From the IMG/VR virus record IMGVR_UViG_3300029064_000011: a stretch of DNA of 13,214 bases; one strand, 5' to 3'. A program made the translations under genes and the position numbers. This stretch comes from a virus. Taxonomy: Duplodnaviria; Heunggongvirae; Uroviricota; Caudoviricetes. Shown here one piece after another: positions 2,375 through 13,214 of this stretch. Position 1 is the stretch's first letter, and every line of letters begins with the position of its first letter. The notes below the pieces were generated by a model. It had not been told where the DNA came from. It saw nothing but the letters and a program-made list of their open reading frames with translations, and made no database searches.

Positions 2375-2575
2375 CGTCGGGTCCTTCCTGGAATTATGGC
2401 CCGTTACGGGGCGGCGACCTCGCGGTTTTTATCTGTTTATGAGAATTTTCCGGCAAAAGTCAGATCCGATCTTCTTCTCTGTAACAGACTGTTTAACAAT
2501 GAAAATATTAAAAAAAGAAAGGATCTGACACGAGGCATTTTAGCCAGAAAATGCCATTATCAGATCCTTTCTCAT
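2375..2575 (+). other. Lambda-type cos site, copy A (cosQ-like, cosN, full cosB-like region), + strand orientation
   Basis: 2399-2453 reads cccgttacggggcggcgacctcgcggtttttatctgtttatgagaattttccgg, closely matching the lambda cos junction as I remember it. Cohesive-end 12-mer GGGCGGCGACCT at 2408-2419. Upstream cgggtccttcctgg resembles lambda cosQ. Downstream has ttcttcttc, aaaagaaagga and nested inverted repeats (AAAGGATCTGA 2516-2526 / TCAGATCCTTT 2561-2571 around GGCATTTT-agccag-AAAATGCC 2534-2555) that parallel the lambda cosB region. Confidence 0.8.
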
Positions 2576-3253: not shown

Positions 3254-3317
3254 TCATAAATAGCGAAAATCCGCGAGGTCGCCGCCCCGTAACGGGTCCA
3301 TATGCCGGAAAGGACCC
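3254..3317 (-). other. Lambda-type cos site, copy B (cosQ-like plus cosN, short divergent cosB), minus orientation, directly upstream of terS
   Basis: Minus strand reads tacgggtcctttccggcatatggacccgttacggggcggcgacctcgcggattttcgctatttatga. The ACGGGTCCTTTCCGG and GGGCGGCGACCTCGCGG blocks match lambda cosQ/cosN as I remember them. The 12-mer occupies 3276-3287 on the + strand as its reverse complement. Sequence diverges from lambda cosB after tatttatga. About 140 nt separate cosN from the terS ATG. Confidence 0.8.
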
Positions 3318-3319
3318 GT

Positions 3320-3343
3320 AAAAAAAGCCGGATTTCTCCGGCC
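3320..3343 (-). terminator. Rho-independent terminator after the 137-aa gene
   Basis: Minus strand GCCGGA-gaaa-TCCGGC hairpin (3327-3342) followed by a 7-U run (3320-3326). Confidence 0.55.
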
Positions 3344-3348
3344 TTGTC

Positions 3349-3762
3349 TCAGATGGTTTTCAGTATGCGCTCGATGTCGCCATCATCGCCCGGGTTTCTG
3401 CCGTCGTATGCCATGCCAGCTGAAACGGCTTGCGGGCTGTGCATGTCCATAAAGTTTTCAAAGGCTGCGGTAAGCTCCGGCGCAACCTTCTGGCGTTCCT
3501 GCTCTATGGTCATGCTAAGGATGCTTTTAGCCGTACCAACATCGATACAAGGCACGTTTGCCATTGCACGTAACAGCGGCTGATAGTCGTTATGCTCATG
3601 AAGCGCCATAATCGCATCAGCGCGCGGCTTGTCCTGCTCTTCCAGTTTGTTGAGTTGATATACGGCCTCGTAGGTTGATAAACCTCTGTCAGCCATTGCC
3701 CGCGCTTCGGCTTTAAATTTACTCGCCAGCGGTAGCGTCATGATGCTTTCATTCGTTGCCAT
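3349..3762 (-). CDS. Hypothetical head-module protein, 137 aa
   Basis: ORF with AGGGGGAA SD 3-4 nt upstream of ATG at 3762. Sits between the decoration-protein gene and cos copy B. No family recognised. Confidence 0.6.
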   Translation of the reverse strand: MATNESIMTLPLASKFKAEARAMADRGLSTYEAVYQLNKLEEQDKPRADAIMALHEHNDYQPLLRAMANVPCIDVGTAKSILSMTIEQERQKVAPELTAAFENFMDMHSPQAVSAGMAYDGRNPGDDGDIERILKTI

Positions 3763-3774
3763 CGTTCCCCCTGC

Positions 3775-4110
3775 TTATCGGGCCAGCGGCTGAACGGATA
3801 CGCCAGAACCCGCAAAGGCGGCGCATTTTTTCGCATCGGTGTCGACGCTCTCGGGCCAGTTCACGGCGGCGATATTAAAGATCCCCGTCTTGTAGCACTG
3901 TGCTGATTTCTGCTTTGACGTGTCCACGGGGTACGAAGTCAGATAAACAGCCTTTCCGGACGCCTGACCATCCCACGGCTTAAACTCGCCATTGTCCGCC
4001 AGCATCAGCGGGGTAAATTCCTGAATGACGCCAGCATCAGCGGCAAAATGTACCAGCGTCGTGGATACCTGCTGACTGCCTGCAAATAACTCAATGTATG
4101 GAGTGTTCAT
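3775..4110 (-). CDS. Head decoration protein, lambda gpD-like, 111 aa
   Basis: Motifs TPLMLAD, WDG, YKTGIF, NWPE and KKCAAFAGSG align with lambda gpD (TPLMLD, WDG, YKSGTF, WPE, KKRTAFAG) from memory. Similar length to gpD (110 aa). GGGGGA SD 5 nt upstream of the ATG. Confidence 0.8.
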   Translation of the reverse strand: MNTPYIELFAGSQQVSTTLVHFAADAGVIQEFTPLMLADNGEFKPWDGQASGKAVYLTSYPVDTSKQKSAQCYKTGIFNIAAVNWPESVDTDAKKCAAFAGSGVSVQPLAR

Positions 4111-4121
4111 AGAATCCCCCG

Positions 4122-5177
4122 TTAACCAATTTTGACGGTAACAAATTTGCGAATGTCTGCCGGCACCGGCTGCGGTGCGCTGTGCGTCTGCACGTACTCA
4201 ATCGCCGGATCGCCGTCCTCAATCCAGTTTTTCGGGTAGTACATGTTTTGCGTTGCGCCCGTTCTTACCGCTTCCTGATCCATAATCGCACCATAAGCAA
4301 CCAGCCCTTTATTGTTGGTGTTGCCCAAGACCAGCAAATCAGGCTCAAGGAAATGTTTTTCGGTGCCGTCGCTGTCGGCGTATTTGCCGGAATAGACGAT
4401 AAGGGCAATATCGCCCAGATAGCCTTTAAAGCTCACCACTTCGCCCAGGTTTTTACAGGCCAGTTCTGCGGCGGATTCTGAACCACGGGAAAGATCGTAC
4501 AGTTCGCGGAATTTTTTAAAGCTGCGTAACGTGCGCCATACCTCAGCGCCCATAATCATGACGTTTGCGGGGCAATTGCCCTGATCCGCATAAAGCTCGA
4601 TATCATAGATTGGATCGTGGGTTTCTTTGTCCTGCTCGGACCATTTACGGCCTTTGGCCTGCTCTATGATGTTGTTTTCCGGCATCTTCCAGTCGATTTC
4701 ATAGCGTTCTATGCCTTCGCCCTCAATGATGTTTTTTCCGGTCGTTACCGCATTTACCGCCAGCCATTCAACACGCGCTTTAATAGCGTTTACCTGGCGG
4801 CGCATGTTGCCAGTAATCAGGCGCATACGGCGATAGGTTGGGTCGTTAAGCTGTGCCGGATCTTCTCCAGCCATGCGCATGATGGTTTTTGTTGGATCGA
4901 TTTCGTGCTTTGGCTTCATGTAGCCAGGTTTAATCGTGCTGGTTTCGTACCCTTTATCGCGCTGTACCTGGCTACCAACCATAGGCGAGCAAAACGCTGA
5001 CATAGTGACTTCTTCGGTGTCCAGGTTATCCAGCATGATGTTTTGGGTGTTGAATGTCGCTACTTTCGGGAAAAACAGCGTGGTAAACAGCGGACTAAAT
5101 TTAAATTCCGCAATATCCCCGCGATTCAGGTACGCAAAAAGCTGGTGAGTGTTAAGTGCCGTTGCTTTGCCTGCCAT
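4122..5177 (-). CDS. Major capsid protein, lambda gpE-like, 351 aa
   Basis: Collinear similarity to lambda gpE over the full length as I remember it: FKFSPLF vs FKFDPLF, KPGYMKPKHEIDP vs TPGYVKPKHEVNP, DPTYRRMRLI vs DPAYRRRRII, WRTLRSFK vs WALFRSFK, SFKGYLGDIALIVYSGKY vs SYKGMYGDVAIVVYSGQY, YPKNWIEDGDPA vs YPKNWVTTGDPA. GGGGGTGA SD. Start overlaps the stop of the upstream 68-aa gene (TAATG). Confidence 0.92.
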   Translation of the reverse strand: MAGKATALNTHQLFAYLNRGDIAEFKFSPLFTTLFFPKVATFNTQNIMLDNLDTEEVTMSAFCSPMVGSQVQRDKGYETSTIKPGYMKPKHEIDPTKTIMRMAGEDPAQLNDPTYRRMRLITGNMRRQVNAIKARVEWLAVNAVTTGKNIIEGEGIERYEIDWKMPENNIIEQAKGRKWSEQDKETHDPIYDIELYADQGNCPANVMIMGAEVWRTLRSFKKFRELYDLSRGSESAAELACKNLGEVVSFKGYLGDIALIVYSGKYADSDGTEKHFLEPDLLVLGNTNNKGLVAYGAIMDQEAVRTGATQNMYYPKNWIEDGDPAIEYVQTHSAPQPVPADIRKFVTVKIG

Positions 5178-5383
5178 TATTCACCCCCATAATTTTTATG
5201 CATCCCAAGCGCCGCAAGTAAATAAGAGCGTACAAGTGAACCTATCGACGGCTCCGGCGTCATCAGCGGATCCAGTCCAGCCGCCACGCCAGCCTCATAG
5301 TTTTTTTTGTGGCGCTGCTTGAGCACCTCCACGATTTCGGGGCTTATGTACACCGAAACACCGCCTTTTTTCTCTTCAGCCAT
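5177..5383 (-). CDS. Hypothetical small protein, 68 aa, translationally coupled to the capsid gene
   Basis: ORF ending in TAA that shares one base with the capsid ATG. GAGGAA upstream of its ATG. First gene after the putative capsid-operon promoter. Function unknown. Confidence 0.5.
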   Translation of the reverse strand: MAEEKKGGVSVYISPEIVEVLKQRHKKNYEAGVAAGLDPLMTPEPSIGSLVRSYLLAALGMHKNYGGE

Positions 5384-5418
5384 AGTAAGAAATTCCTCTT
5401 CGACTTAAAAAATCATAA

Positions 5419-5468
5419 CTGGATGTTCATCCAGCTCTGATTATAATCATGATTGCATTTTGTGCAAT
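5419..5468 (-). promoter_or_regulatory. Putative sigma70 promoter of the capsid operon with two overlapping palindromes
   Basis: On the minus strand: -35 TTGCAC (5462-5467), 16-nt spacer, perfect -10 TATAAT (5440-5445, inside the palindrome GATTATAATC). Palindrome ATTGCA-N5-TGCAAT (5452-5468) overlaps the -35. Palindrome CTGGATG-TT-CATCCAG (5419-5434) sits at the predicted start site. Confidence 0.45.
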
Positions 5469-5544
5469 GATATTGAGTTGTGTTGCAAATTATGAAATGA
5501 TTATCCCGATCATGTGTGTCAGTGCACCAAAAAGCCTCATATGC

Positions 5545-5586
5545 AAAAGCCCGATAAGCCACCTCTGACCTTATCGGGCTTTTTTA
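5545..5586 (+). terminator. Strong hairpin with flanking A and T runs (intrinsic terminator, mainly + direction)
   Basis: GCCCGATAAG (5549-5558), 11-nt loop, CTTATCGGGC (5570-5579), then TTTTTT. Preceded by AAAA, so weakly bidirectional. No annotated + strand gene upstream. Confidence 0.45.
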
Positions 5587-5760
5587 TCTGCCTGCAAAGA
5601 TGTCGAACAAAAATTAACCATAACCATCATCTTTTTTGCATCAAAACAATTAAAAACAATAAATTACGCTCATGATGATGATGACGATAAAATCACAAAA
5701 ATGCGCTTTTTTCCGCGCCTCCCGCCCCGTGTTCAGGCCCACCCCGCCAGGAGGCCCCGT

Positions 5761-5782
5761 AAAAAAGCCGGATTGCTCCGGC
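5761..5782 (-). terminator. Rho-independent terminator after the SSB-like gene
   Basis: Minus strand GCCGGA-gcaa-TCCGGC hairpin (5767-5782) followed by 6 U (5761-5766). Nearly the same sequence module as the terminator at 3320-3343. Confidence 0.55.
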
Positions 5783-5798
5783 TTCTGTCACTCGTCGC

Positions 5799-6221
5799 TT
5801 AAAACGGTATGTTATCCCCGTACGGATCATCATTCCCCGCCTGTTGTTTTGCCCTGTTCAGCGCGTCAGTAGCCTGGCCCTGTTGACCTTTTTTGCCGCC
5901 CAGTCGCGCCGTTCGCGCACTGATTACACTGTCTGCGATAACCTGCCAGCCCTGCCGCGTTTCTCCGTTCTGCCCAGTCCACTGGCTGATCTGCATGTTA
6001 CCCGCCACGCTCAGGAGTTCACCCTTGCGGTGCCTTTCCAGTGCTTCGGCCTGTCTGCCAAATGCCAGGACGGATAACCACATCGTCGCCGTTCCGTCAT
6101 CTGCCTGGCTGCACGGAAGGGGGACCGCCATACGTGCCAGCGTCATTGGTGTGCCCTTGCTGGTCTGTTTTACCTGCGGGTCGTCCACCAGCCGCCCGTA
6201 AGCTGCTATCTGTGCTGTCAT
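5799..6221 (-). CDS. Single-stranded DNA-binding protein (SSB-like), 140 aa
   Basis: Short OB-fold-like N-terminal region, Gly/Gln-rich linker, and the acidic C-terminal tail ending DDPYGDNIPF, typical of bacterial and phage SSBs (DDDIPF). ATG overlaps the stop of the upstream gene (ATGA). Confidence 0.75.
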   Translation of the reverse strand: MTAQIAAYGRLVDDPQVKQTSKGTPMTLARMAVPLPCSQADDGTATMWLSVLAFGRQAEALERHRKGELLSVAGNMQISQWTGQNGETRQGWQVIADSVISARTARLGGKKGQQGQATDALNRAKQQAGNDDPYGDNIPF

Positions 6222-6784: not shown

Positions 6785-8539
6785 TTATAAAAACGCGTCG
6801 CACTCGTCTGTTGTTATTGCGTTAGTCTGCGTTACTCCCTTAACTTTCCGCGTAATATATTCATGTCCGTAAACTTTCGCGGCTGGCTTCATAGCCTTGC
6901 CAAAGTCATTTACGTTTAGCGGTTTGCTCCTGCCTGCGTACGCCATAAACGCCAGATAGACGCGGTAAAGGCTGTTTCTGGTCGTGTACTTCACTGAATC
7001 GCCACCGCCGCCCATCATCAGGCCGCGTGCTTCCTCCAGAAAATTCAGGAACTGGCAAAACTCAATAACCGGATCCGTCTGTTGCTTTATTGCCAGAGCT
7101 TCATCACCGTCACGCTGTTCCAGTAGTAAAGCCCGTGCCTTCTCAGGGTCGGTAAAGTTCGCCAGCAATCGGCGGATAATGACAGGGATTTCAGCCGCGA
7201 TCTTTTCCGGTAGCTCCCTGTCTTTTTCGGCCTCACTGACGATATTGTCGAAACGGAAAATCACGCGACGACGTGCCACACCTCCGGCCCGTTCGGTGAA
7301 TATCATCGGGTTATTGTTGGTCGCCAGCACCACCGCCCTGATTACCGCCGTGAAACGCTTTTCGTATTTCGGGTTAATTTCCACGGGGTCACCGCCCGTG
7401 ATTTTCTTGATGCCCGTTCCTTCGCCTGTATATTTCGGCTGGTCAGCCAGGACGATAAGACGACTCCCGACAACCTGCGCACGTCCACCAGCATCATCAA
7501 GCGATGTCATTTCAGCGCTTACCGTGTTCTGTTTCCCTGCCAGAAGGCTAGCTATGTGTGTGAATGTACTTTTACCGCTCCCGCCGTCTCCGGTGGCCTC
7601 AATAAACATCTGCCAGTCGTACCGGTTCGCCATAATCATGTACAGCGCGGCACATATACGCATCATCTTGCGCGGGTCTTTTCCGGCTGCGTGCTCAAGC
7701 CATTTATGAAAGTTTGGCGCGTTATCGCGGATGTTCTCCCCTGGTGCTGGTGGCGTGTACTCAATGCCGTTGTGCGTGGTGATCCAGTTCTCCGGCGTGT
7801 GCGGGGAAAATTCCCCCGTTTTCAGGTCAAGCGCACCATTGGCGAACGGCAACAAATCGCCGGACGGCTCGCCCATTGGTTCGGCAATAACTTTTAACGC
7901 TTCCACGGCGTTATTGATTACGCGCTTGCTGAAAGTGGCCCTGTGCTCTGAATAGATCGCCACCATTTCGCGGCTAAGTTCCATTGTGCTGACCGGACAC
8001 CATACCCCGCCGCGCCATACGTGAACGATTTCACTTTCAGGATGTACGCAAACGCCATCAAAGCGATCGGCAAGCAGCTGCGCGCGCTCACTGTCCGCCA
8101 TCTGCGAAAGTTGCGCCTTTTGCTTTACCGGAAGCTCAATGACCAGACCATCAGAAAGATTCTGGCGCTCACGGGCCAGATATTCGCGCCAGTTCTCCAC
8201 CTTCTGACCGTGCATACCATCAGGGTAAAAATTTGCATCCTGTACGCCTGCCGCCGCCAGCTTCTGACCAATCGCCTTTATCATTACTGGCGCAAGATAT
8301 CCGGCCCTGAATATGCGCACGGATTTTCTGCCTTCCGGCACAATTTGCAGCTTATCCAGTTCGGATAACTGCTGCTCCCCAAGCCACACAGGAGTCTCAT
8401 TATCTCCGGCCATACGCGCGTCATGTTCCTGCCATTGTTTTGCGTGTGACCAGGCATCACTACCCGCAAAAATAATGACTTCTGTTTCTTTGTGTTTTAT
8501 GCCGCGTGACTGCTGTTTTACGTTCGGTGCCAGTTTCAT
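6785..8539 (-). CDS. Primase-helicase replication initiator (P4-family phage/plasmid primase C-terminal domain with D5-like NTPase), 584 aa
   Basis: Walker A TGDGGSGKST and Walker B-like RLIVLADQ in the C-terminal half. Domain order and size are typical of satellite pri-rep proteins. Origin iterons directly downstream. Start overlaps the upstream 99-aa ORF. Confidence 0.88.
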   Translation of the reverse strand: MKLAPNVKQQSRGIKHKETEVIIFAGSDAWSHAKQWQEHDARMAGDNETPVWLGEQQLSELDKLQIVPEGRKSVRIFRAGYLAPVMIKAIGQKLAAAGVQDANFYPDGMHGQKVENWREYLARERQNLSDGLVIELPVKQKAQLSQMADSERAQLLADRFDGVCVHPESEIVHVWRGGVWCPVSTMELSREMVAIYSEHRATFSKRVINNAVEALKVIAEPMGEPSGDLLPFANGALDLKTGEFSPHTPENWITTHNGIEYTPPAPGENIRDNAPNFHKWLEHAAGKDPRKMMRICAALYMIMANRYDWQMFIEATGDGGSGKSTFTHIASLLAGKQNTVSAEMTSLDDAGGRAQVVGSRLIVLADQPKYTGEGTGIKKITGGDPVEINPKYEKRFTAVIRAVVLATNNNPMIFTERAGGVARRRVIFRFDNIVSEAEKDRELPEKIAAEIPVIIRRLLANFTDPEKARALLLEQRDGDEALAIKQQTDPVIEFCQFLNFLEEARGLMMGGGGDSVKYTTRNSLYRVYLAFMAYAGRSKPLNVNDFGKAMKPAAKVYGHEYITRKVKGVTQTNAITTDECDAFL

Positions 8540-9875: not shown

Positions 9876-10095
9876 GTACCCCTCCGCATTTTTTTTCGTT
9901 AGAAATAAGCGTTCTTCTTTCCTGTTCATCGCTCAGGAATACGCAGACCTCACCGCTAAGGCGTTTAAGTAAGCCGATGATTGCCCCTGATTCGCTGTCG
10001 GTCATCATGCCAGGGTAATCCTCTGCCAGTGCGCAAATAACTTCGATTTGGTGGGCGCGTTCTGCTGCCTGTTGTAGTGTGATTTCCTGGCTCAT
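9865..10095 (-). CDS. Hypothetical protein, 76 aa
   Basis: ORF with GGGGGTAGG SD. Its ATG overlaps the stop of the upstream 66-codon reading frame (ATGA). Confidence 0.45.
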   Translation of the reverse strand: MSQEITLQQAAERAHQIEVICALAEDYPGMMTDSESGAIIGLLKRLSGEVCVFLSDEQERRTLISNEKKCGGVHVQ

Positions 10096-10292
10096 AAGCC
10101 TACCCCCTGACGAATACGGGCAGCAAATACCATCACGCAGCCAGCCGGAGATTGCTGGCGTGCTTCCTGTTCGCTGGTGGCCTCAATGGTAATCACGCGC
10201 GGTTGTGCCGTGCTCAGGGCGATAAAACGCCAGATGTATTTATTCAGGTTGTGCGAGTCCCGCCCTTGCGGGTGTGTGGTATGATTTCTCAT
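10092..10292 (-). CDS. Hypothetical protein, 66 aa, candidate first gene of the leftward operon
   Basis: ATG at 10290-10292 preceded by GAGGTAG. Stop overlaps the start of the 76-aa gene. This is the C-terminal in-frame part of the 428-codon ORF 10092..11378. Starts about 95 bp from the operator cluster. Confidence 0.4.
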   Translation of the reverse strand: MRNHTTHPQGRDSHNLNKYIWRFIALSTAQPRVITIEATSEQEARQQSPAGCVMVFAARIRQGVGL

Positions 10293-11378
10293 AGCTACCT
10301 CGATACTTTCGCTATCGTTGGTGGTTAGAAGCCCGGTTAGTGTTAGCGCACTGCCGGGTTTCGTCGTTTCTGCACCTTGCGCCAACAAGGTGTTGAACAC
10401 CAATTTAAACCCAGGTGTTAAACACGTCAAGTGTTGAACACTTATTTTTTTTCCTGCATACTGCATTTGTTTTTTATGAGGGGTACACCACATGGCGACA
10501 AAAGCGGTAAACGCAAAATCACAAACCGTTGCGGCAAGGGTTCCGCATGAAGTTATGAACAATGTTGAGGCGGTAAAAATGCCTGGCGAAAGTACGGGGC
10601 AATTTGTTACTGCGGCATTAAAACGAGAAGTTGAATATCGCCAGCGGCGCAAGGCCAAAGAACCAGAGTAATCACCATCAGCGCCGTGGTGTAAGGTATT
10701 ACGGCGCATTGCTATGCAGGACAACACAATGACCGATAAAGAATTGACCAAAACATTATCACCGGCACGGAAAAGACGGCGCAGAAAGATAGAGCATGAA
10801 TCAGAAAGATTCGCGCCATGTGCTTTTGCCCTTGAGCAATTCCTTAAAGAGTACAGGGAAAAGCGCTCATTGCAGGTATGGCAACGAACTGAACCAGACT
10901 GATTGCATTGCCCACCAGCCGCAAATGTGGCATTGTTGGCAATGCTCATGCGTTGGGGATAACGTGTAGCTTGTGTCGAGGGGCCACCGTAGCGGGTGGC
11001 CTTTGTTTTGCCCGTTATTCGGCAATTGTGGCGCTTCTCCACATGGTTGATATAATCCCACTGCTCAGATTCATTTTTTGCGCAGTAGGTTAATTGTTCA
11101 CAAAGGCGCTCCGGCAACGGGGCGCTTTTTGTTTTTATTAGTTTGTAGAAACCTGACTCAGAGATAATGCTCATATTCTGATTGCCGTCAGGGGTGTAAG
11201 TTAAATTTACTCCCTTTTTATCATCAAACATCTGCAACGCTCTGGCGTTAACAATATTGGTTTCACTCCCGCCAGTAAGGCCGGAAATAACCGGAATAAT
11301 TTCGGCAAAATTTTGCAGATTCTGTTTTTCAGGACGAACGAAGCCCCGCCCTTGTTCGGGAGAATATCCAGTATTCAT
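10092..11378 (-). CDS. 428-codon ORF, probably not one real gene; N-terminal roughly 115 codons resemble a BRO-N/antirepressor-like domain, the middle overlaps the + strand RHH cassette
   Basis: N-terminal part contains ISESGFYKLIKTKSAP, reminiscent of the BRO-N motif I-E-G-LY-LI-S-P. The rest has skewed Cys/Ser/Thr-rich composition and runs antisense through operators, the RHH gene and two + strand terminators. Weak SD at the 11378 ATG. Confidence 0.25.
   Translation of the reverse strand: MNTGYSPEQGRGFVRPEKQNLQNFAEIIPVISGLTGGSETNIVNARALQMFDDKKGVNLTYTPDGNQNMSIISESGFYKLIKTKSAPLPERLCEQLTYCAKNESEQWDYINHVEKRHNCRITGKTKATRYGGPSTQATRYPQRMSIANNATFAAGGQCNQSGSVRCHTCNERFSLYSLRNCSRAKAHGANLSDSCSIFLRRLFRAGDNVLVNSLSVIVLSCIAMRRNTLHHGADGDYSGSLALRRWRYSTSRFNAAVTNCPVLSPGIFTASTLFITSCGTLAATVCDFAFTAFVAMWCTPHKKQMQYAGKKISVQHLTCLTPGFKLVFNTLLAQGAETTKPGSALTLTGLLTTNDSESIEVAMRNHTTHPQGRDSHNLNKYIWRFIALSTAQPRVITIEATSEQEARQQSPAGCVMVFAARIRQGVGL
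10388..10442. promoter_or_regulatory. Three palindromic operator-like sites in a divergent promoter region
   Basis: GGTGTT-G-AACACC (10388-10400), GTGTT-A-AACAC (10414-10424) and AAGTGTT-G-AACACTT (10428-10442). The third overlaps a candidate rightward promoter: -35 TTGAAC (10433-10438), 17-nt spacer, -10 CATACT (10456-10461). Confidence 0.6.
10491..10670 (+). CDS. Ribbon-helix-helix (Arc/CopG-like) DNA-binding protein, 59 aa
   Basis: Not in the ORF track because it is under 60 aa; translated by hand as MATKAVNAKSQTVAARVPHEVMNNVEAVKMPGESTGQFVTAALKREVEYRQRRKAKEPE. The N-terminal strand-like RVPHEV followed by two helices is the classic RHH pattern. GAGGGG SD. The operator cluster lies immediately upstream. 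Confidence 0.6.
10714..10902 (+). CDS. Small, very basic hypothetical protein (58-62 aa), second gene of the + strand cassette
   Basis: ORF track entry 10714..10902. An AGGA SD favours the second ATG at 10729 (MTDKELTK...). Contains an RKRRRRK tract. Followed by an intrinsic terminator. Confidence 0.4.
   Translation: MQDNTMTDKELTKTLSPARKRRRRKIEHESERFAPCAFALEQFLKEYREKRSLQVWQRTEPD
10982..11009 (+). terminator. Rho-independent terminator of the + strand RHH cassette
   Basis: GGCCACC-gtagcg-GGTGGCC hairpin (10982-11001) followed by TTTGTTTT. Confidence 0.55.
11106..11136 (+). terminator. Second + strand rho-independent terminator
   Basis: GCGCTCCG-GCAA-CGGGGCGC hairpin (8 bp including one G-U pair, GNRA-like tetraloop) followed by TTTTTGTTTTT. 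Confidence 0.55.
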
Positions 11379-11430: not shown

Positions 11431-11619
11431 TTAGTGAACTGCCTCGCAGCTGTCCTTCCATGCCAGAACTTCGGATAAAGACCAGCCAACGGAACGACCG
11501 CCCAGCTTACGCCGTGATGGGAATTGTCCGGCTTTTTCCAGGCGGTACCGACATGAGCGGCTCAGGCCTGTAAGTTGCTGACATTCTTTTTCACGTATAA
11601 AGCGATCTGTGCTTAACAC
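11431..11619 (-). CDS. alpA: AlpA-family transcriptional regulator (excisionase-like HTH), 62 aa, GTG start
   Basis: Pattern LTGLSRSCRYRLEKAGQFPSRRKLGGRSVGWSLSEVLAW fits the Phage_AlpA family (TG-SR-T-Y, FP-P-LG-RSVGW, E-W). AAGGGGGAA SD 4-5 nt upstream of the GTG. Positioned next to the integrase as in PICIs and P4-like islands. Confidence 0.8.
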   Translation of the reverse strand: MLSTDRFIREKECQQLTGLSRSCRYRLEKAGQFPSRRKLGGRSVGWSLSEVLAWKDSCEAVH

Positions 11620-11900
11620 AATTCCCCCTTTGTTGTTTCTTAAAGAGTCATTGGGTGGATTATTGGGTTGGGTTGTGTCGGATTGTGTCAGGGTGTTTGT
11701 GGAATGGCAAACACTGGCGGCGGTCGTTTTACAGAAGCAGGGGGAATGAGAATAAAAACTCTTTTAATTCATTATGATGCAAAGGCATAAAATTTTACTT
11801 TTACGCCTTTTTTACATATTTTTAAGAGTGATTCGCCAGTGTATAAAAAAACAGTACACCTATAAAAATCAAATGGTTATTACGATGGCTGATTTTTAAC

Positions 11901-11960
11901 CCGTTGTTCCATTTTGTTCCTTGTTGTTCGTCGTTGTGTCTCGTTGTTTCACGTTGTCCG
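11901..11960. repeat. Six tandem 10-bp direct repeats (consensus TCGTTGTTYC) between int and alpA
   Basis: Perfectly phased units ccgttgttcc, attttgttcc, ttgttgttcg, tcgttgtgtc, tcgttgtttc, acgttgtccg. A related GT-rich pair (gggttgtgtc, ggattgtgtc) lies at about 11667-11686. Confidence 0.55.
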
Positions 11961-11984: not shown

Positions 11985-13214
11985 TTATATTTCTCTGGCT
12001 ATTGGCAATGTGGTTACGTTTTCATGTGTTCCCGCCAGTATCCCTAACCGCTCCGTCCACATATCCAGCGCGTCACGTTTCGCATCCAGATAACGGGAAT
12101 GGTTATAGACTCGTTGCATCCCTGGCATCTGATGACCTGTAAGCTGCTCCACGACGTGAGGATCCACGCCTAAATCGTTCAGCATCGTTGTAAAGGTGCG
12201 CCGGATGTCATGCAGTGACCAGTGAGGGTGTTTTAGCCTCCTGTGCGCTAATCTGCCGTACTGCGACACGCTTGTTTCCTGTTTCACTTCCCCCAGCAAT
12301 AAGCCCGTGTGCCTGTTCTGCTCCACCAGCTGCGTGACGAACGGCAGTATTGCTTCCGGTATGGGCCGGAATATTGCCACCTTCGTTTTGCTGTGTTCTT
12401 TCGGCACGGTCCAGAGCATTTCGGTAAAATCCCACTCGCTGATCTCCGATAACCTCAGTTCTACCGTCCGGCATCCGAAAACAATCAGGAGGCGGATTAG
12501 TGCGACGTAGTAAGGGGAAAATATTTTTTTGTCCAGTGCCTGCAATAATTCGCCAAGTTCTTTGGTGCTTAAGACACGCTCGCTTATATCCGGTTTTTTC
12601 CCAACGTCCGCCACACTCATATCATCAAGAACGTTGCTGATTGCATAGCGCCGCCTCCGGCAGAACTTAAGCGCCTGTTTGCACGTCTGTAGCAAGAATC
12701 CGGCAGTAACAGGCGTTCGCTTTGCCACCTGGTCAAAACAGGCCAGCCAGTGCCGTAGCTCGCATTTATCCAGCGGCATAGCACCAATGTGCTGTATTAC
12801 GTGATTATTAAGGCGCTTTTTCAGGGCGGCATAATCCACGCGGTTTTCCTTTACGTAAGACTCAAGCCAGTAGGTAAGCGCATCGCCAACCGTTACGGGC
12901 TTTAACGCTTTCTGTACGGTGTAATTCATCTCATGACGTGGATTTTTCCCCTCAGCAAGCCAAGCGCGACACTGTGCCGCTTTTTCCCTGGCAGCTTTCA
13001 GACTCAGATCAGGATAATTTCCCAGCTTAATCCGTTCCGGTCGTGCTCCCCTTCCCGTTCCGGCCCTGTAGGTGAAATACCAGGTTAAAAGGCCGCTGGT
13101 TGAATGCCTGACGCTCAGGTTTCCACCGTCATTAAGAAAGGCTGTTTTTTGGGCGGGTGTGCCGTTGATTTTCCTCAGCTGTGTATCGCTCAGTTTGTTA
13201 AGTGCTCTGCTCAT
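11985..13214 (-). CDS. int: Tyrosine recombinase, P4-type integrase, 409 aa; start codon at the last window base
   Basis: N-terminal arm-binding domain pattern (LSDTQLRK, NDGGNLSV, WYFTYR, LGNYPDLSLKAAREK) typical of P4-like integrases. C-terminal catalytic motifs HDIRRTF and RVYNHSRY. The N-terminal pattern suggests the ATG at 13212-13214 is the true start. Confidence 0.93.
   Translation of the reverse strand: MSRALNKLSDTQLRKINGTPAQKTAFLNDGGNLSVRHSTSGLLTWYFTYRAGTGRGARPERIKLGNYPDLSLKAAREKAAQCRAWLAEGKNPRHEMNYTVQKALKPVTVGDALTYWLESYVKENRVDYAALKKRLNNHVIQHIGAMPLDKCELRHWLACFDQVAKRTPVTAGFLLQTCKQALKFCRRRRYAISNVLDDMSVADVGKKPDISERVLSTKELGELLQALDKKIFSPYYVALIRLLIVFGCRTVELRLSEISEWDFTEMLWTVPKEHSKTKVAIFRPIPEAILPFVTQLVEQNRHTGLLLGEVKQETSVSQYGRLAHRRLKHPHWSLHDIRRTFTTMLNDLGVDPHVVEQLTGHQMPGMQRVYNHSRYLDAKRDALDMWTERLGILAGTHENVTTLPIAREI

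What the first reader, a model, noticed from the sequence alone, without database searches (positions are those of the whole stretch)
5419..5468. Capsid-operon promoter with a perfect TATAAT inside a palindrome and two overlapping operator-like palindromes
A near-consensus promoter (TTGCAC, 16 nt, TATAAT) sits about 50 nt upstream of the capsid operon, overlapped by ATTGCA-N5-TGCAAT at the -35 and CTGGATG-TT-CATCCAG at the start site. This suggests tight repression until helper infection. The regulator is unknown.
Basis: seen in the sequence. Interest (0 to 1): 0.45.

Follow-up and report, generated by a model that had tools for sequence, protein, structure and literature searches.

The report
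LexA-gated, self-regulated satellite capsid-operon promoter
This is the promoter of a small capsid-gene operon in an E. coli phage-satellite island (EcCICFT073 type); its start-site palindrome is very probably a host LexA (DNA-damage) operator and its -35 palindrome is probably the binding site of the operon's own small first-gene protein, so the 'unknown regulator' can now be named and tested.

Summary
On the minus strand, 5468-5419 holds TTGCAC-N16-TATAAT, with ATTGCA-N5-TGCAAT over the -35, TGATTATAATCA around the -10, and CTGGATG-AA-CATCCAG at the predicted start. "Near-consensus" overstates it: the -35 matches only 3 of 6.

The island is a close variant of the phage satellite EcCICFT073. 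The operon is the c1498-c1501 unit: a 68-aa gene, lambda E-like capsid, D-like decoration and a 137-aa gene. It ends at a strong terminator.

The start-site palindrome scores as an E. coli LexA box (heterology index (HI) 8.4, 18.7 bits, like ruvA, cho and lexA). No shuffle of 200 reaches that score. It keeps a fixed position in E. coli and Salmonella islands. The natural variants fit a protein operator, not an RNA hairpin.

The -35 palindrome has a second copy 30 bp upstream. The pair follows the 68-aa gene family into every context found, including ones without a LexA box or lambda-type capsid genes. That protein models as ribbon-helix-helix-like, so autoregulation is the best reading.

All of this is in silico. 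Published CFT073 RNA-seq shows the unit induced without SOS, so repression is not absolute. Kind: known (SaPI operon I is LexA-controlled). I found no report of it for Gram-negative PICIs.

The parts
5440..5445 (-). -10 hexamer TATAAT (6/6)
   Evidence: TATAAT in 55 of 65 distinct family sequences, TAAAAT in the 8 of the clade that lacks the LexA box.
5462..5467 (-). -35 hexamer TTGCAC (3/6), with a 16-nt spacer
   Evidence: TTGC is invariant across the family. Variants are TTGCAT, TTGCGC, TTGCAA, TTGCTC and TTGCGA.
5438..5449 (.). 12-bp palindrome TGATTATAATCA enclosing the -10, so TATAAT reads on both strands
   Evidence: Conserved except for TGATTAAAATCA in the L005-like clade.
5417..5436 (.). 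Predicted LexA (SOS) box AGCTGGATGAACATCCAGTT (core CTG-N10-CAG at 5434-5419), spanning about -3 to +17 of the predicted start
   Evidence: HI 8.44 and 18.65 bits with a matrix built from 18 published boxes. 0 of 200 shuffles reach it. Fixed offset in 61 of 70 distinct sequences. Present in EcCICFT073 and in Salmonella islands.
5432..5436 (-). Predicted transcription start (inferred from the -10 position, not measured)
   Evidence: Inference from standard sigma-70 geometry. Indirect support: c1498-c1501 are regulated separately from the upstream genes in CFT073.
5452..5468 (.). Proximal operator ATTGCA-N5-TGCAAT over the -35 (centre about -27)
   Evidence: Conserved, with single-arm variants. 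Present upstream of every 68-aa homologue examined.
5482..5498 (.). Distal, half-degenerate copy ATTTCA-N5-TGCAAC (centre about -57), 30 bp from the proximal site
   Evidence: Conserved in all lineages. Both copies are strong in L189.
5394..5399 (-). Shine-Dalgarno AGAGGA of the first gene
   Evidence: Conserved in alignments A2 and A3.
5177..5383 (-). First gene: 68-aa protein (c1498 homologue, phrog_3255), the candidate ribbon-helix-helix autoregulator
4122..5177 (-). Lambda E-like major capsid protein gene (c1499 homologue)
   Evidence: Pfam Phage_cap_E, E 4e-50.
3775..4110 (-). Lambda D-like head decoration gene (c1500 homologue)
   Evidence: Pfam HDPD, E 6e-18.
3349..3762 (-). 137-aa last gene of the unit (c1501 homologue)
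   Evidence: phrog_1999, plus a weak match to the C-terminal part of a head maturation protease profile. Co-induced with c1498-c1500 in CFT073.
3320..3343 (-). Intrinsic terminator GGCCGGAGAAATCCGGC followed by T7, which ends the operon
   Evidence: It fits c1503 not being co-induced in CFT073.
5545..5586 (.). Strong hairpin (dG about -22 kcal/mol) that marks the upstream edge of the mobile promoter/capsid module
   Evidence: Module boundary. Replaced by unrelated hairpins in L005 and Salmonella.

Best explanation
The feature is the sigma-70 promoter of the four-gene capsid-homologue operon of an EcCICFT073-type phage-inducible chromosomal island: a 68-aa gene, a lambda E-like capsid gene, a D-like decoration gene and a 137-aa gene. 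It is under two layers of negative control.

(1) The palindrome at the start site is an operator for the host SOS repressor LexA. It lies 3 nt after a perfect -10 and covers the predicted +1, so bound LexA should block RNA polymerase. DNA damage activates RecA and LexA cleaves itself. That same signal induces lambdoid helper prophages, so the operon would be released in step with helper induction.

(2) The palindrome over the -35 (TTGCA-N5-TGCAA) and its copy 30 bp upstream are operators for the operon's own first product. This is a small ribbon-helix-helix-like protein, which would give autoregulation.

Shown here: the sequence elements, their conservation, their co-occurrence patterns and the operon boundaries. 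Inferred: the transcription start, LexA binding, the fold and DNA binding of the 68-aa protein, and the direction of its effect.

Sub-confidences: promoter of this operon about 0.9; LexA operator about 0.75; 68-aa protein as the factor at the -35 sites about 0.45.
For: Identity of the island. It has the same int and alpA proteins and the same phoQ/roxA site as EcCICFT073. c1499 and c1500 are the capsid and decoration homologues.

Promoter and operon. There is a perfect -10 with TTG 16 nt upstream. A terminator lies upstream and another follows the fourth gene. CFT073 RNA-seq gives log2FC of 2.24, 2.05, 1.45 and 1.17 for c1498-c1501. The upstream genes c1495-c1497 (0.24-0.36) and the downstream c1503 (0.33) are unchanged.

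LexA box.
- A matrix from 18 published E. coli boxes gives HI 8.44 and 18.65 bits. Leave-one-out values are ruvA 8.64, cho 8.02 and lexA 8.09. It scores better than ftsK, uvrD, dinG, dinB and polB.
- 0 of 200 shuffles reach it.
- It remains good with ruvA and cho removed from the matrix (HI 6.2-10.4 across variants).
- The arms CTGGAT/ATCCAG are identical to the ruvA box.
- 61 of 70 distinct family sequences have it at the same offset, although the retrieval pattern contained no part of it.
- It is present in EcCICFT073, in the Nissle island with a different backbone, and in Salmonella islands whose flanks have diverged.
- No hit of 16 bits or more occurs in 44.6 kb of neighbouring CFT073 DNA.
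- Variants keep CTG...CAG. The change CATCCAG->CATACAG breaks stem symmetry but moves towards the LexA consensus (HI 6.4).
- Box presence tracks exactly with TATAAT against TAAAAT.

-35 sites.
- Two copies lie 30 bp apart.
- The only good copies in the island are here.
- They persist where AlpA, integrase and replicase alleles differ.
- They sit upstream of every 68-aa homologue found. L189 (another genus, no LexA box) has two perfect-armed sites 32 bp apart and no other match in its 6.2 kb. L188 is a phage-like contig with a tail spike and no E/D-type capsid family among its called genes, and has sites 30 bp apart.

Against: No binding or expression experiment exists for either regulator, and the transcription start is inferred.

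The box has CTGG rather than the usual CTGT. Only ruvA, cho and dinG among the 18 reference boxes have G there.

The CFT073 unit is induced by temperature with sulA unchanged, so LexA cannot be the only or an absolute control.

One clade of the family (L005-like, 8 distinct sequences) and L189 have no LexA box.

Natural variants degrade one arm of the -35 palindrome: TGAAAT, CGCAAT, TGCGAT, and ATTGCT in CFT073 itself. So perfect symmetry is not required, and part of the conservation may simply be -35 function.

A host factor shared by these genera could also explain why the sites travel with the gene.

Deleting c1499 or c1500 gave no phenotype, so the biological stake of the regulation is unknown.
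Confidence: 0.6

Rival explanations
1. The start-site palindrome acts at the RNA level. It would form a 5' stem-loop followed by a U-rich run, working as a leader attenuator/terminator or as an mRNA-stabilising hairpin, rather than as a protein operator.
For: The consensus scan lists it as terminator-like (8 pairs, then ATGATTTTTT). The leader folds with this hairpin, dG -11.4 kcal/mol. A T-run downstream is kept in all lineages.
Against: The fold is not better than shuffles (z -1.66, 13 of 200). Terminator-like hits in the window are at chance level (17 against 16.3). The U-run starts 5-6 nt after the stem. On 17 distinct variants, 5 of 8 pairs never vary, covariation does not exceed shuffles (136 of 500), and the only change inside the core stem (G-C to G.A, in 2 variants) is disruptive. 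That same change improves the LexA score. The arms are identical to the ruvA LexA box.
Confidence: 0.1
2. The TTGCA-N5-TGCAA sites are bound by a host factor, for example the nucleoside regulator CytR, whose half-sites are TTGCA/TGCAA-type octamers. The 68-aa protein would then have a different role, such as in head assembly.
For: Published CytR motifs are GTTGCATT/AATGCAAC octamers with very flexible spacing, including AYGTGCAAC-N10-13-GTTRCATT. The + strand here reads ATTGCATT, and the inner halves of the two sites read ATTTGCAAC-N13-ATTGCACA. The operon responds to temperature without SOS, so some host input exists. The RHH evidence is weak.
Against: All CytR-regulated promoters have at least one CRP site, and none is detectable here (39 hits at 3 mismatches or fewer against 44 expected; nothing convincing near the promoter). 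The half-site orientation within each site is the reverse of the canonical TGCAA-N2-3-TTGCA. The site pair follows the 68-aa gene into a phage-like contig and into another genus.
Confidence: 0.15
3. Both palindromes are operators of an unidentified island- or helper-encoded repressor that holds the operon off until a helper phage infects.
For: Gram-negative PICIs are switched on by a still unidentified helper signal acting through AlpA. Both palindromes are conserved.
Against: The two palindromes are unrelated in sequence, so one protein is unlikely to bind both. The start-site one fits LexA quantitatively. The promoter block is the same in islands with different AlpA, integrase and replicase alleles. 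The -35 motif is not enriched in the CFT073 helper prophage or its immunity region (5 hits against 3.7 expected, two of them the island's own). The operon is expressed and inducible without helper induction.
Confidence: 0.1
4. The palindromic -10 drives transcription in both directions. A short + strand RNA would start near 5454, contain the TTGCA elements in its 5' part and end at the hairpin at 5545-5586. The conservation of those elements would then reflect the RNA rather than a DNA operator.
For: TATAAT reads on both strands. The layout is almost symmetric about 5443.5. In five lineages with three unrelated hairpin sequences, the longer T-run follows the hairpin on the + strand. The 144-nt + strand stretch folds better than shuffles (z -2.86).
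Against: The + strand -35 is poor (CTGGAT). In the L005-like clade and L189 the + strand hexamer becomes TTTAAT, which loses the critical A at -11, yet the sites and the hairpin persist. There is no Rfam family here. The region between the sites and the hairpin is not conserved. The z-score is dominated by the terminator hairpin.
Confidence: 0.1

Closest known systems
SaPI operon I (packaging/morphogenesis operon of Staphylococcus aureus pathogenicity islands), controlled by LexA (Ubeda et al. 2007, as cited in PMC6092414 and PMC6739421)
   Same: It is a phage satellite. A separate late operon of capsid or packaging genes lies downstream of the replication module. A host LexA operator sits at its promoter, so SOS couples the satellite's late genes to prophage induction.
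   Different: It is a Gram-positive LexA box with unrelated genes. Here the control is predicted, not shown. The unit holds capsid and decoration homologues of no known phenotype, and the interference gene (rpp) lies outside it. There is also a second, probably self-encoded, operator pair.
E. coli ruvAB and cho SOS boxes (CTGG-type LexA operators)
   Same: The arms CTGGAT...ATCCAG are identical to ruvA. The heterology index is in the same range (8.4 against 8.6 and 8.0).
   Different: The central four bases differ. The site lies on a mobile island, not in the core SOS regulon. LexA binding is not demonstrated.
Small ribbon-helix-helix autoregulators encoded as the first gene of their operon (P22 Arc/Mnt, plasmid CopG, ParD-type antitoxins; from established knowledge)
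   Same: It is a small protein with strand-helix-helix topology, encoded first in the operon. Palindromic operators with half-site centres one helical turn apart overlap the -35, and a second operator lies in helical phase.
   Different: There is no significant sequence match to any RHH family. The helix-helix linker is longer than usual. Binding is untested. The family is tiny (16 representatives in 1.8 billion proteins).
AlpA-dependent activation of Gram-negative PICIs (Fillol-Salom et al. 2018, PMC6092414)
   Same: It is the same island family, and AlpA is the known master activator of the early operon.
   Different: This promoter block is independent of the AlpA allele and is separated from the early operon by terminators. 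It carries no copy of the repeats seen upstream of alpA.

Membership tests
E. coli LexA (SOS) box | 16-bp core CTG-N10-CAG within the 20-bp palindrome TACTG(TA)5CAGTA | tested here: met
   AGCTGGATGAACATCCAGTT has CTG and CAG at the correct spacing. 12 of 20 positions match the consensus; ruvA matches 14 of 20.
E. coli LexA (SOS) box | Heterology index / matrix score within the range of boxes upstream of DNA-damage-induced genes | tested here: met
   HI 8.44 and 18.65 bits, ranking between lexA (8.09) and ruvA (8.64) in leave-one-out. 0 of 200 shuffles reach it. Robust to removing ruvA and cho from the matrix.
E. coli LexA (SOS) box | Position overlapping the promoter or start site of the regulated gene | tested here: met
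   The box starts 3 nt after the -10 hexamer and covers the predicted +1. The start itself is inferred.
E. coli LexA (SOS) box | Conservation of the box in orthologous promoters | tested here: met
   61 of 70 distinct sequences, retrieved without using the box. Also present in Salmonella islands. Absent from one clade.
E. coli LexA (SOS) box | LexA binding and LexA/RecA-dependent induction by DNA damage | not testable with these tools
   No paper in the searchable library reports it. The one expression data set found (temperature shift) did not induce SOS.
Sigma-70 promoter | -10 hexamer with A at position 2 and T at position 6 | tested here: met
   TATAAT, 6 of 6. TAAAAT in the clade without the box.
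Sigma-70 promoter | -35 hexamer matching TTGACA at 4 or more positions, with a 16-18 nt spacer | tested here: not met
   TTGCAC matches 3 of 6 (TTG only). The 16-nt spacer is acceptable. The scan therefore did not list it. TTGCAA (4 of 6) occurs in the L005-like clade.
Sigma-70 promoter | A transcript starting downstream of it | tested here: inconclusive
   Indirect only. c1498-c1501 are regulated as a block distinct from the upstream genes in CFT073, and terminators bracket the unit.
EcCICFT073-type Gram-negative PICI | int, alpA, pri-rep, then capsid/decoration homologues and an rpp (TerS-like) gene, with cos sites, about 10-12 kb, at a fixed attachment site | tested here: met
   Pfam, NCBIfam and PHROG calls. 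Same int and alpA proteins and the same phoQ/roxA site as CFT073. Lambda-type cos at 3287-3276.
Ribbon-helix-helix DNA-binding protein (for the 68-aa product) | N-terminal strand followed by two helices, similar to solved RHH domains | tested here: inconclusive
Ribbon-helix-helix DNA-binding protein (for the 68-aa product) | Sequence membership of an RHH family | tested here: not met
   No Pfam or NCBIfam hit for the window protein. RHH_1 at E 0.2, below cut-off, in one homologue only. The PDB profile search found no RHH.
CytR operator | TTGCA/TGCAA-type octamer half-sites | tested here: inconclusive
   ATTGCATT matches GTTGCATT at 7 of 8. The other halves match at 5-6 of 8. The orientation within a site is the reverse of the canonical one.
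CytR operator | At least one flanking CRP site | tested here: not met
   No CRP-like site above chance. The requirement is stated in PMC3454398.
Intrinsic terminator / leader attenuator | G+C-rich stem immediately followed by a U-tract, with pairing maintained in relatives | tested here: not met
   Only 3 G-C pairs. The U-run is displaced by 5-6 nt. There is no covariation, and the one core change is disruptive.

The most novel reading that the evidence does not exclude
The 68-aa gene together with its paired TTGCA-N5-TGCAA operators is a self-contained, autoregulated 'promoter cassette'. It moves between satellites and phages and drives whatever late genes lie behind it. In E. coli and Salmonella PICIs it has acquired a host LexA operator and a perfect, palindromic -10. 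That would make a symmetric, possibly bidirectional, switch whose + strand output is a short RNA ending at the conserved + strand-facing terminator. Together with the second LexA-type box between int and alpA, this would mean that Gram-negative PICIs are licensed by SOS at two points, in convergence with SaPIs.
Probability: 0.15. Interest if true: 0.6.

Novelty: new member of a known kind. Interest (0 to 1): 0.45.

Why it matters
EcCICFT073-type islands are the model Gram-negative phage satellites, and this promoter block is present in 602 of 5426 complete E. coli genomes. Their early switch (AlpA) has been studied. The control of the capsid-homologue operon has not, and its genes have no known phenotype.

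A LexA operator at its start site would tie the operon to DNA damage, the same signal that induces the lambdoid helpers. SaPIs reached the same solution with unrelated parts. That suggests testing the operon's function after SOS induction and in lexA mutants, rather than only by plaque assays on undamaged cells.

Naming the 68-aa protein as a candidate autoregulator gives a function to an orphan family. It also provides a compact, portable operator/regulator pair that can be tested with two proteins and one 110-bp fragment.

Tried and rejected
- **PerC as the regulator.** A PerC-family gene lies just upstream in some islands, including CFT073, but is absent from the window and from several others that have the same promoter. 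The apparent PerC similarity of the 68-aa protein came from a chimeric protein, P0023.
- **AlpA or Rep as the -35 site factor.** The promoter block is unchanged in islands with different AlpA, integrase and replicase alleles. The repeats upstream of alpA are different.
- **Replication-origin iterons.** The published ori is immediately 3' of pri-rep, not here.
- **Helper-phage repressor or Cro.** The motif is not enriched in the CFT073 lambdoid prophage. An earlier scan used the wrong spacing (N7 instead of N5) and should be ignored.
- **CytR.** The half-sites resemble it, but there are no CRP sites.
- **Read by eye only, no tool run.** Sigma-54, FNR, lambda CII and Fur were dismissed because registers or spacings do not fit, or the matching bases are not conserved.
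- **Small ORFs across the region** (49 aa on the minus strand, 34 and 53 aa on the plus strand). They cross the terminator hairpin and an indel-rich, unconserved stretch.
- **Known RNA families.** Rfam finds none here.
- **Searches that returned nothing useful.** The genome-contig scans gave nothing or two chance hits. Foldseek and the PDB sequence searches for the 68-aa protein were empty. No paper links LexA to these islands beyond citing the SaPI case.

Full report
**What is there.**
The window holds phoQ (1-1461, + strand) followed by an island whose genes all lie on the minus strand. In order they are:
- a P4-type integrase (11985-13214);
- an AlpA/excisionase-type HTH gene (11431-11619);
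- a 428-aa ORF with an Icd-like C-terminus;
- small ORFs and a DUF4222 gene;
- a D5-type primase (6785-8539) and an SSB gene (5799-6221);
- a 415-bp spacer;
- a 68-aa ORF, a lambda E-like capsid gene, a D-like decoration gene and a 137-aa gene;
- a Nu1-like small-terminase homologue.

The identical region in a complete genome lies between phoQ and roxA. E. coli CFT073 has the same integrase and AlpA proteins, the same insertion site and the same gene order. The island is therefore a close variant of EcCICFT073, the model Gram-negative phage-inducible chromosomal island. In that island c1499 and c1500 are the capsid and decoration homologues, lambda and phi80 are helpers, and AlpA is the activator of the early genes.

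**Checking the observation.**
- TTGCAC (5467-5462), a 16-nt spacer, then TATAAT (5445-5440);
- ATTGCAcaaaaTGCAAT (5468-5452);
- TGATTATAATCA (5449-5438), so TATAAT also reads on the + strand;
- CTGGATGaaCATCCAG (5434-5419);
- a Shine-Dalgarno sequence and the ATG at 5383.

Three qualifications apply. First, the -35 matches the consensus at only 3 of 6 positions, so the promoter scan did not list it. Second, TTG-N19-TATAAT occurs once against 0.18 expected, and 34 of 200 shuffles have at least one. The match alone is therefore not remarkable. Third, the first gene is a 68-aa ORF, not the capsid gene.

Conservation is what makes the elements credible. The stretch 5150-5585 moves as a block with the capsid genes in many E. 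coli genomes, and the spacer itself is found in 602 of 5426 complete genomes. Against a Salmonella island, the 88-nt core is 79% identical. The capsid gene is 71%, the decoration gene 64%, the 68-aa gene 58%, and the flanking non-coding DNA 51-61%.

**Extent of the transcription unit.**
Upstream, a strong hairpin (5545-5586) marks the edge of the mobile block. Directly after the stop codon of the 137-aa gene there is a canonical terminator: GGCCGGAGAAATCCGGC plus seven T, at about 3343-3320. A lambda-type cos sequence follows it.

A published CFT073 RNA-seq table (23 to 37 C shift) supports these boundaries. The log2 fold changes are 2.24, 2.05, 1.45 and 1.17 for c1498-c1501, all significant. 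The values are 0.24-0.36 for the upstream genes c1495-c1497 and 0.33 for the downstream c1503 (rppA). sulA is unchanged at 0.25.

So the unit is the four genes from the 68-aa ORF to the 137-aa ORF. It starts in this spacer, and it can be induced without SOS.

**The start-site palindrome is a LexA box.**
CTG-N10-CAG is the geometry of the E. coli SOS box. I took 18 boxes published in PMC3009722 Table 4 and built a symmetrised matrix and a heterology index from them.
- **Score.** The 20-mer AGCTGGATGAACATCCAGTT scores 18.65 bits with HI 8.44. It ranks with lexA (8.09), cho (8.02) and ruvA (8.64), and is better than ftsK, uvrD, dinG, dinB and polB in leave-one-out scoring.
- **Chance.** No shuffle of 200 reaches it; the mean best score is 9.3 bits.
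- **Arms.** CTGGAT/ATCCAG are identical to the ruvA box.
- **Robustness.** Removing ruvA and cho from the matrix changes little.

For an unbiased conservation test I retrieved loci with a pattern made only of the -35 site and the -10. Of 70 genuine distinct sequences, 61 carry a box at the same offset with HI 6.1-10.2. Eight lack it; these form a separate clade whose -10 is TAAAAT. One has a 1-nt insertion.

The box is also present in other settings:
- EcCICFT073 itself;
- the Nissle 1917 island, which sits at a tRNA-Pro site with a different integrase and AlpA;
- Salmonella islands.

The adjacent 44.6 kb of CFT073 chromosome and lambdoid prophage has no hit of 16 bits or more.

**Operator or hairpin?**
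The consensus scan also flags the palindrome as terminator-like, and the leader can fold into it. That fold is no better than shuffles.

On 17 distinct natural variants, five of eight pairs never vary and covariation does not exceed the shuffle control (136 of 500). The only change inside the core stem, G-C to G.A, is disruptive. That same change (CATCCAG to CATACAG) moves the sequence towards the LexA consensus and lowers HI to 6.4. This favours a protein operator.

The box begins 3 nt after the -10 and covers the predicted start, a position from which LexA would block RNA polymerase. This last point is an inference from standard promoter geometry.

**The -35 palindrome and its partner.**
The site is TTGCA-N5-TGCAA. 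A second copy (ATTTCAtaattTGCAAC, 5498-5482) lies 30 bp upstream. No other good copy lies in an intergenic region of the island.

Across 65 distinct family sequences TTGC is invariant and the two sites are kept. Single-base changes in one arm do occur: TGAAAT, CGCAAT, TGCGAT, and ATTGCT in CFT073. Perfect symmetry is therefore not essential.

The block is the same in islands with different AlpA, integrase and replicase alleles. The published ori lies elsewhere. That argues against AlpA, Rep or iterons. The CFT073 helper prophage shows no enrichment of the motif.

The decisive comparison came from distant homologues of the 68-aa protein:
- **L185-187.** These keep both sites, TATAAT and the LexA box.
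- **L189-191.** These come from another genus, with portal and protease genes downstream. They have no LexA box and a TAAAAT -10. They carry two strong sites, ATTGCActttaTGCAAT and GTTGCAtgttaTGCAAT, 32 bp apart. These are the only matches in the 6.2-kb locus.
- **L188.** This is a phage-like contig with a tail-spike gene and no E/D-type capsid family among its called genes. It has GTTGCGttttaTGCAAT and a second copy 30 bp downstream, just upstream of the homologue.

The site pair therefore travels with this gene. It does not travel with the capsid genes, the LexA box or the island backbone.

**The 68-aa protein.**
It has no Pfam or NCBIfam hit, belongs to PHROG 3255 of unknown function, and its family is tiny (16 representatives in 1.8 billion proteins).

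Foldseek and the PDB sequence searches found nothing. The fold assignment is therefore suggestive, not established. Combined with the co-travelling sites, autoregulation by this protein is the best available explanation, at about 0.45.

**How it most likely works.**
In undamaged cells LexA sits on the start site of a promoter that has a perfect -10. The first-gene product binds the -35 site and its upstream partner, half-site centres one helical turn apart and sites three turns apart.

DNA damage removes LexA at the same moment as it induces lambdoid helper prophages, so the capsid-homologue unit is expressed in step with helper late functions. The autoregulator then limits or shapes that expression.

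Two points temper this. The strict association of the box with TATAAT, and of its absence with TAAAAT, fits a strong promoter that needs an added brake. The temperature response without SOS shows there is at least one further input and that repression is leaky.

**Comparison with what is known.**
The closest system is SaPI operon I, whose LexA control is cited by the PICI papers. I found no paper in the searchable library that links LexA to EcCICFT073-type islands or that describes this promoter.

It is a new member of known kinds, a LexA-repressed promoter and probably an RHH-autoregulated operon, in a setting where neither had been reported.

**Limits.**
Everything here is computational or taken from published tables. 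The start site, LexA binding, the fold and binding of the 68-aa protein, and any + strand transcript remain to be tested.

Noticed in passing
window 11837-11856 (int/alpA spacer): A second LexA-type box: minus strand TACTGTTTTTTTATACACTG, 18.1 bits, HI 8.8, with one perfect half and one CAC half. It lies about 220 nt upstream of the alpA-like gene. It is identical in EcCICFT073 and is 19.0 bits in L002/L003. The Nissle island, with an unrelated int/alpA allele, has a 16.9-bit box at the equivalent place. The published work says alpA induction depends on the helper, not on SOS, so its role is unclear.
   Followed up: partly
window 5545-5586: The hairpin upstream of the promoter has its longer T-run on the + strand side. 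Functionally equivalent hairpins of unrelated sequence in L005 and Salmonella show the same bias. This suggests a terminator for a + strand transcript coming out of the promoter region.
   Followed up: partly
window 3276-3287 (minus) and about 2409-2420 (plus): Two lambda-type cohesive-end sequences (GGGCGGCGACCT). One is just after the operon terminator and one is near the island end. They match the two cos sites reported for EcCICFT073.
   Followed up: no
window 11900-11950 and 11665-11700 (minus strand): Runs of GAACAAC/GACACAAC-type direct repeats between int and the alpA-like gene. They may be AlpA or integrase arm-type sites.
   Followed up: no
window 10092-11378 and 10293-10365: A 428-aa ORF whose only recognisable part is a C-terminal Icd-like domain. 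The corresponding region is split or a pseudogene in relatives. A sub-threshold Rfam match to the SymR antitoxin RNA lies inside it on the opposite strand (33 bits against a gathering score of 61).
   Followed up: no
window 5587-5798; L183 1-208: A PerC-family regulator gene sits between SSB and the promoter block in CFT073 and several relatives, but is missing from the window. One database protein (P0023) is a PerC::68-aa chimera, which implies a deletion that removed the promoter.
   Followed up: partly
window 3349-3762: The 137-aa last gene of the operon has a weak match (E 5e-8) to the C-terminal part of a head-maturation-protease profile. That is where scaffold-like domains lie in lambda-type phages, so it may be a scaffold-like protein for the island's capsid homologue.
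   Followed up: no
L171, L139 and L111/L140/L163/L167 (IMG/VR relatives): Natural single-base promoter variants: -10 TGTAAT (which loses the critical A at -11), TAATTATAAT, and a right arm of the -35 palindrome changed to TGAAAT. These are ready-made mutants for testing the model.
   Followed up: no
L182 (E. coli Nissle 1917 type, tRNA-Pro site): The same capsid module and promoter are attached to a different integrase, AlpA and attachment site. The module is therefore exchanged between island backbones.
   Followed up: partly
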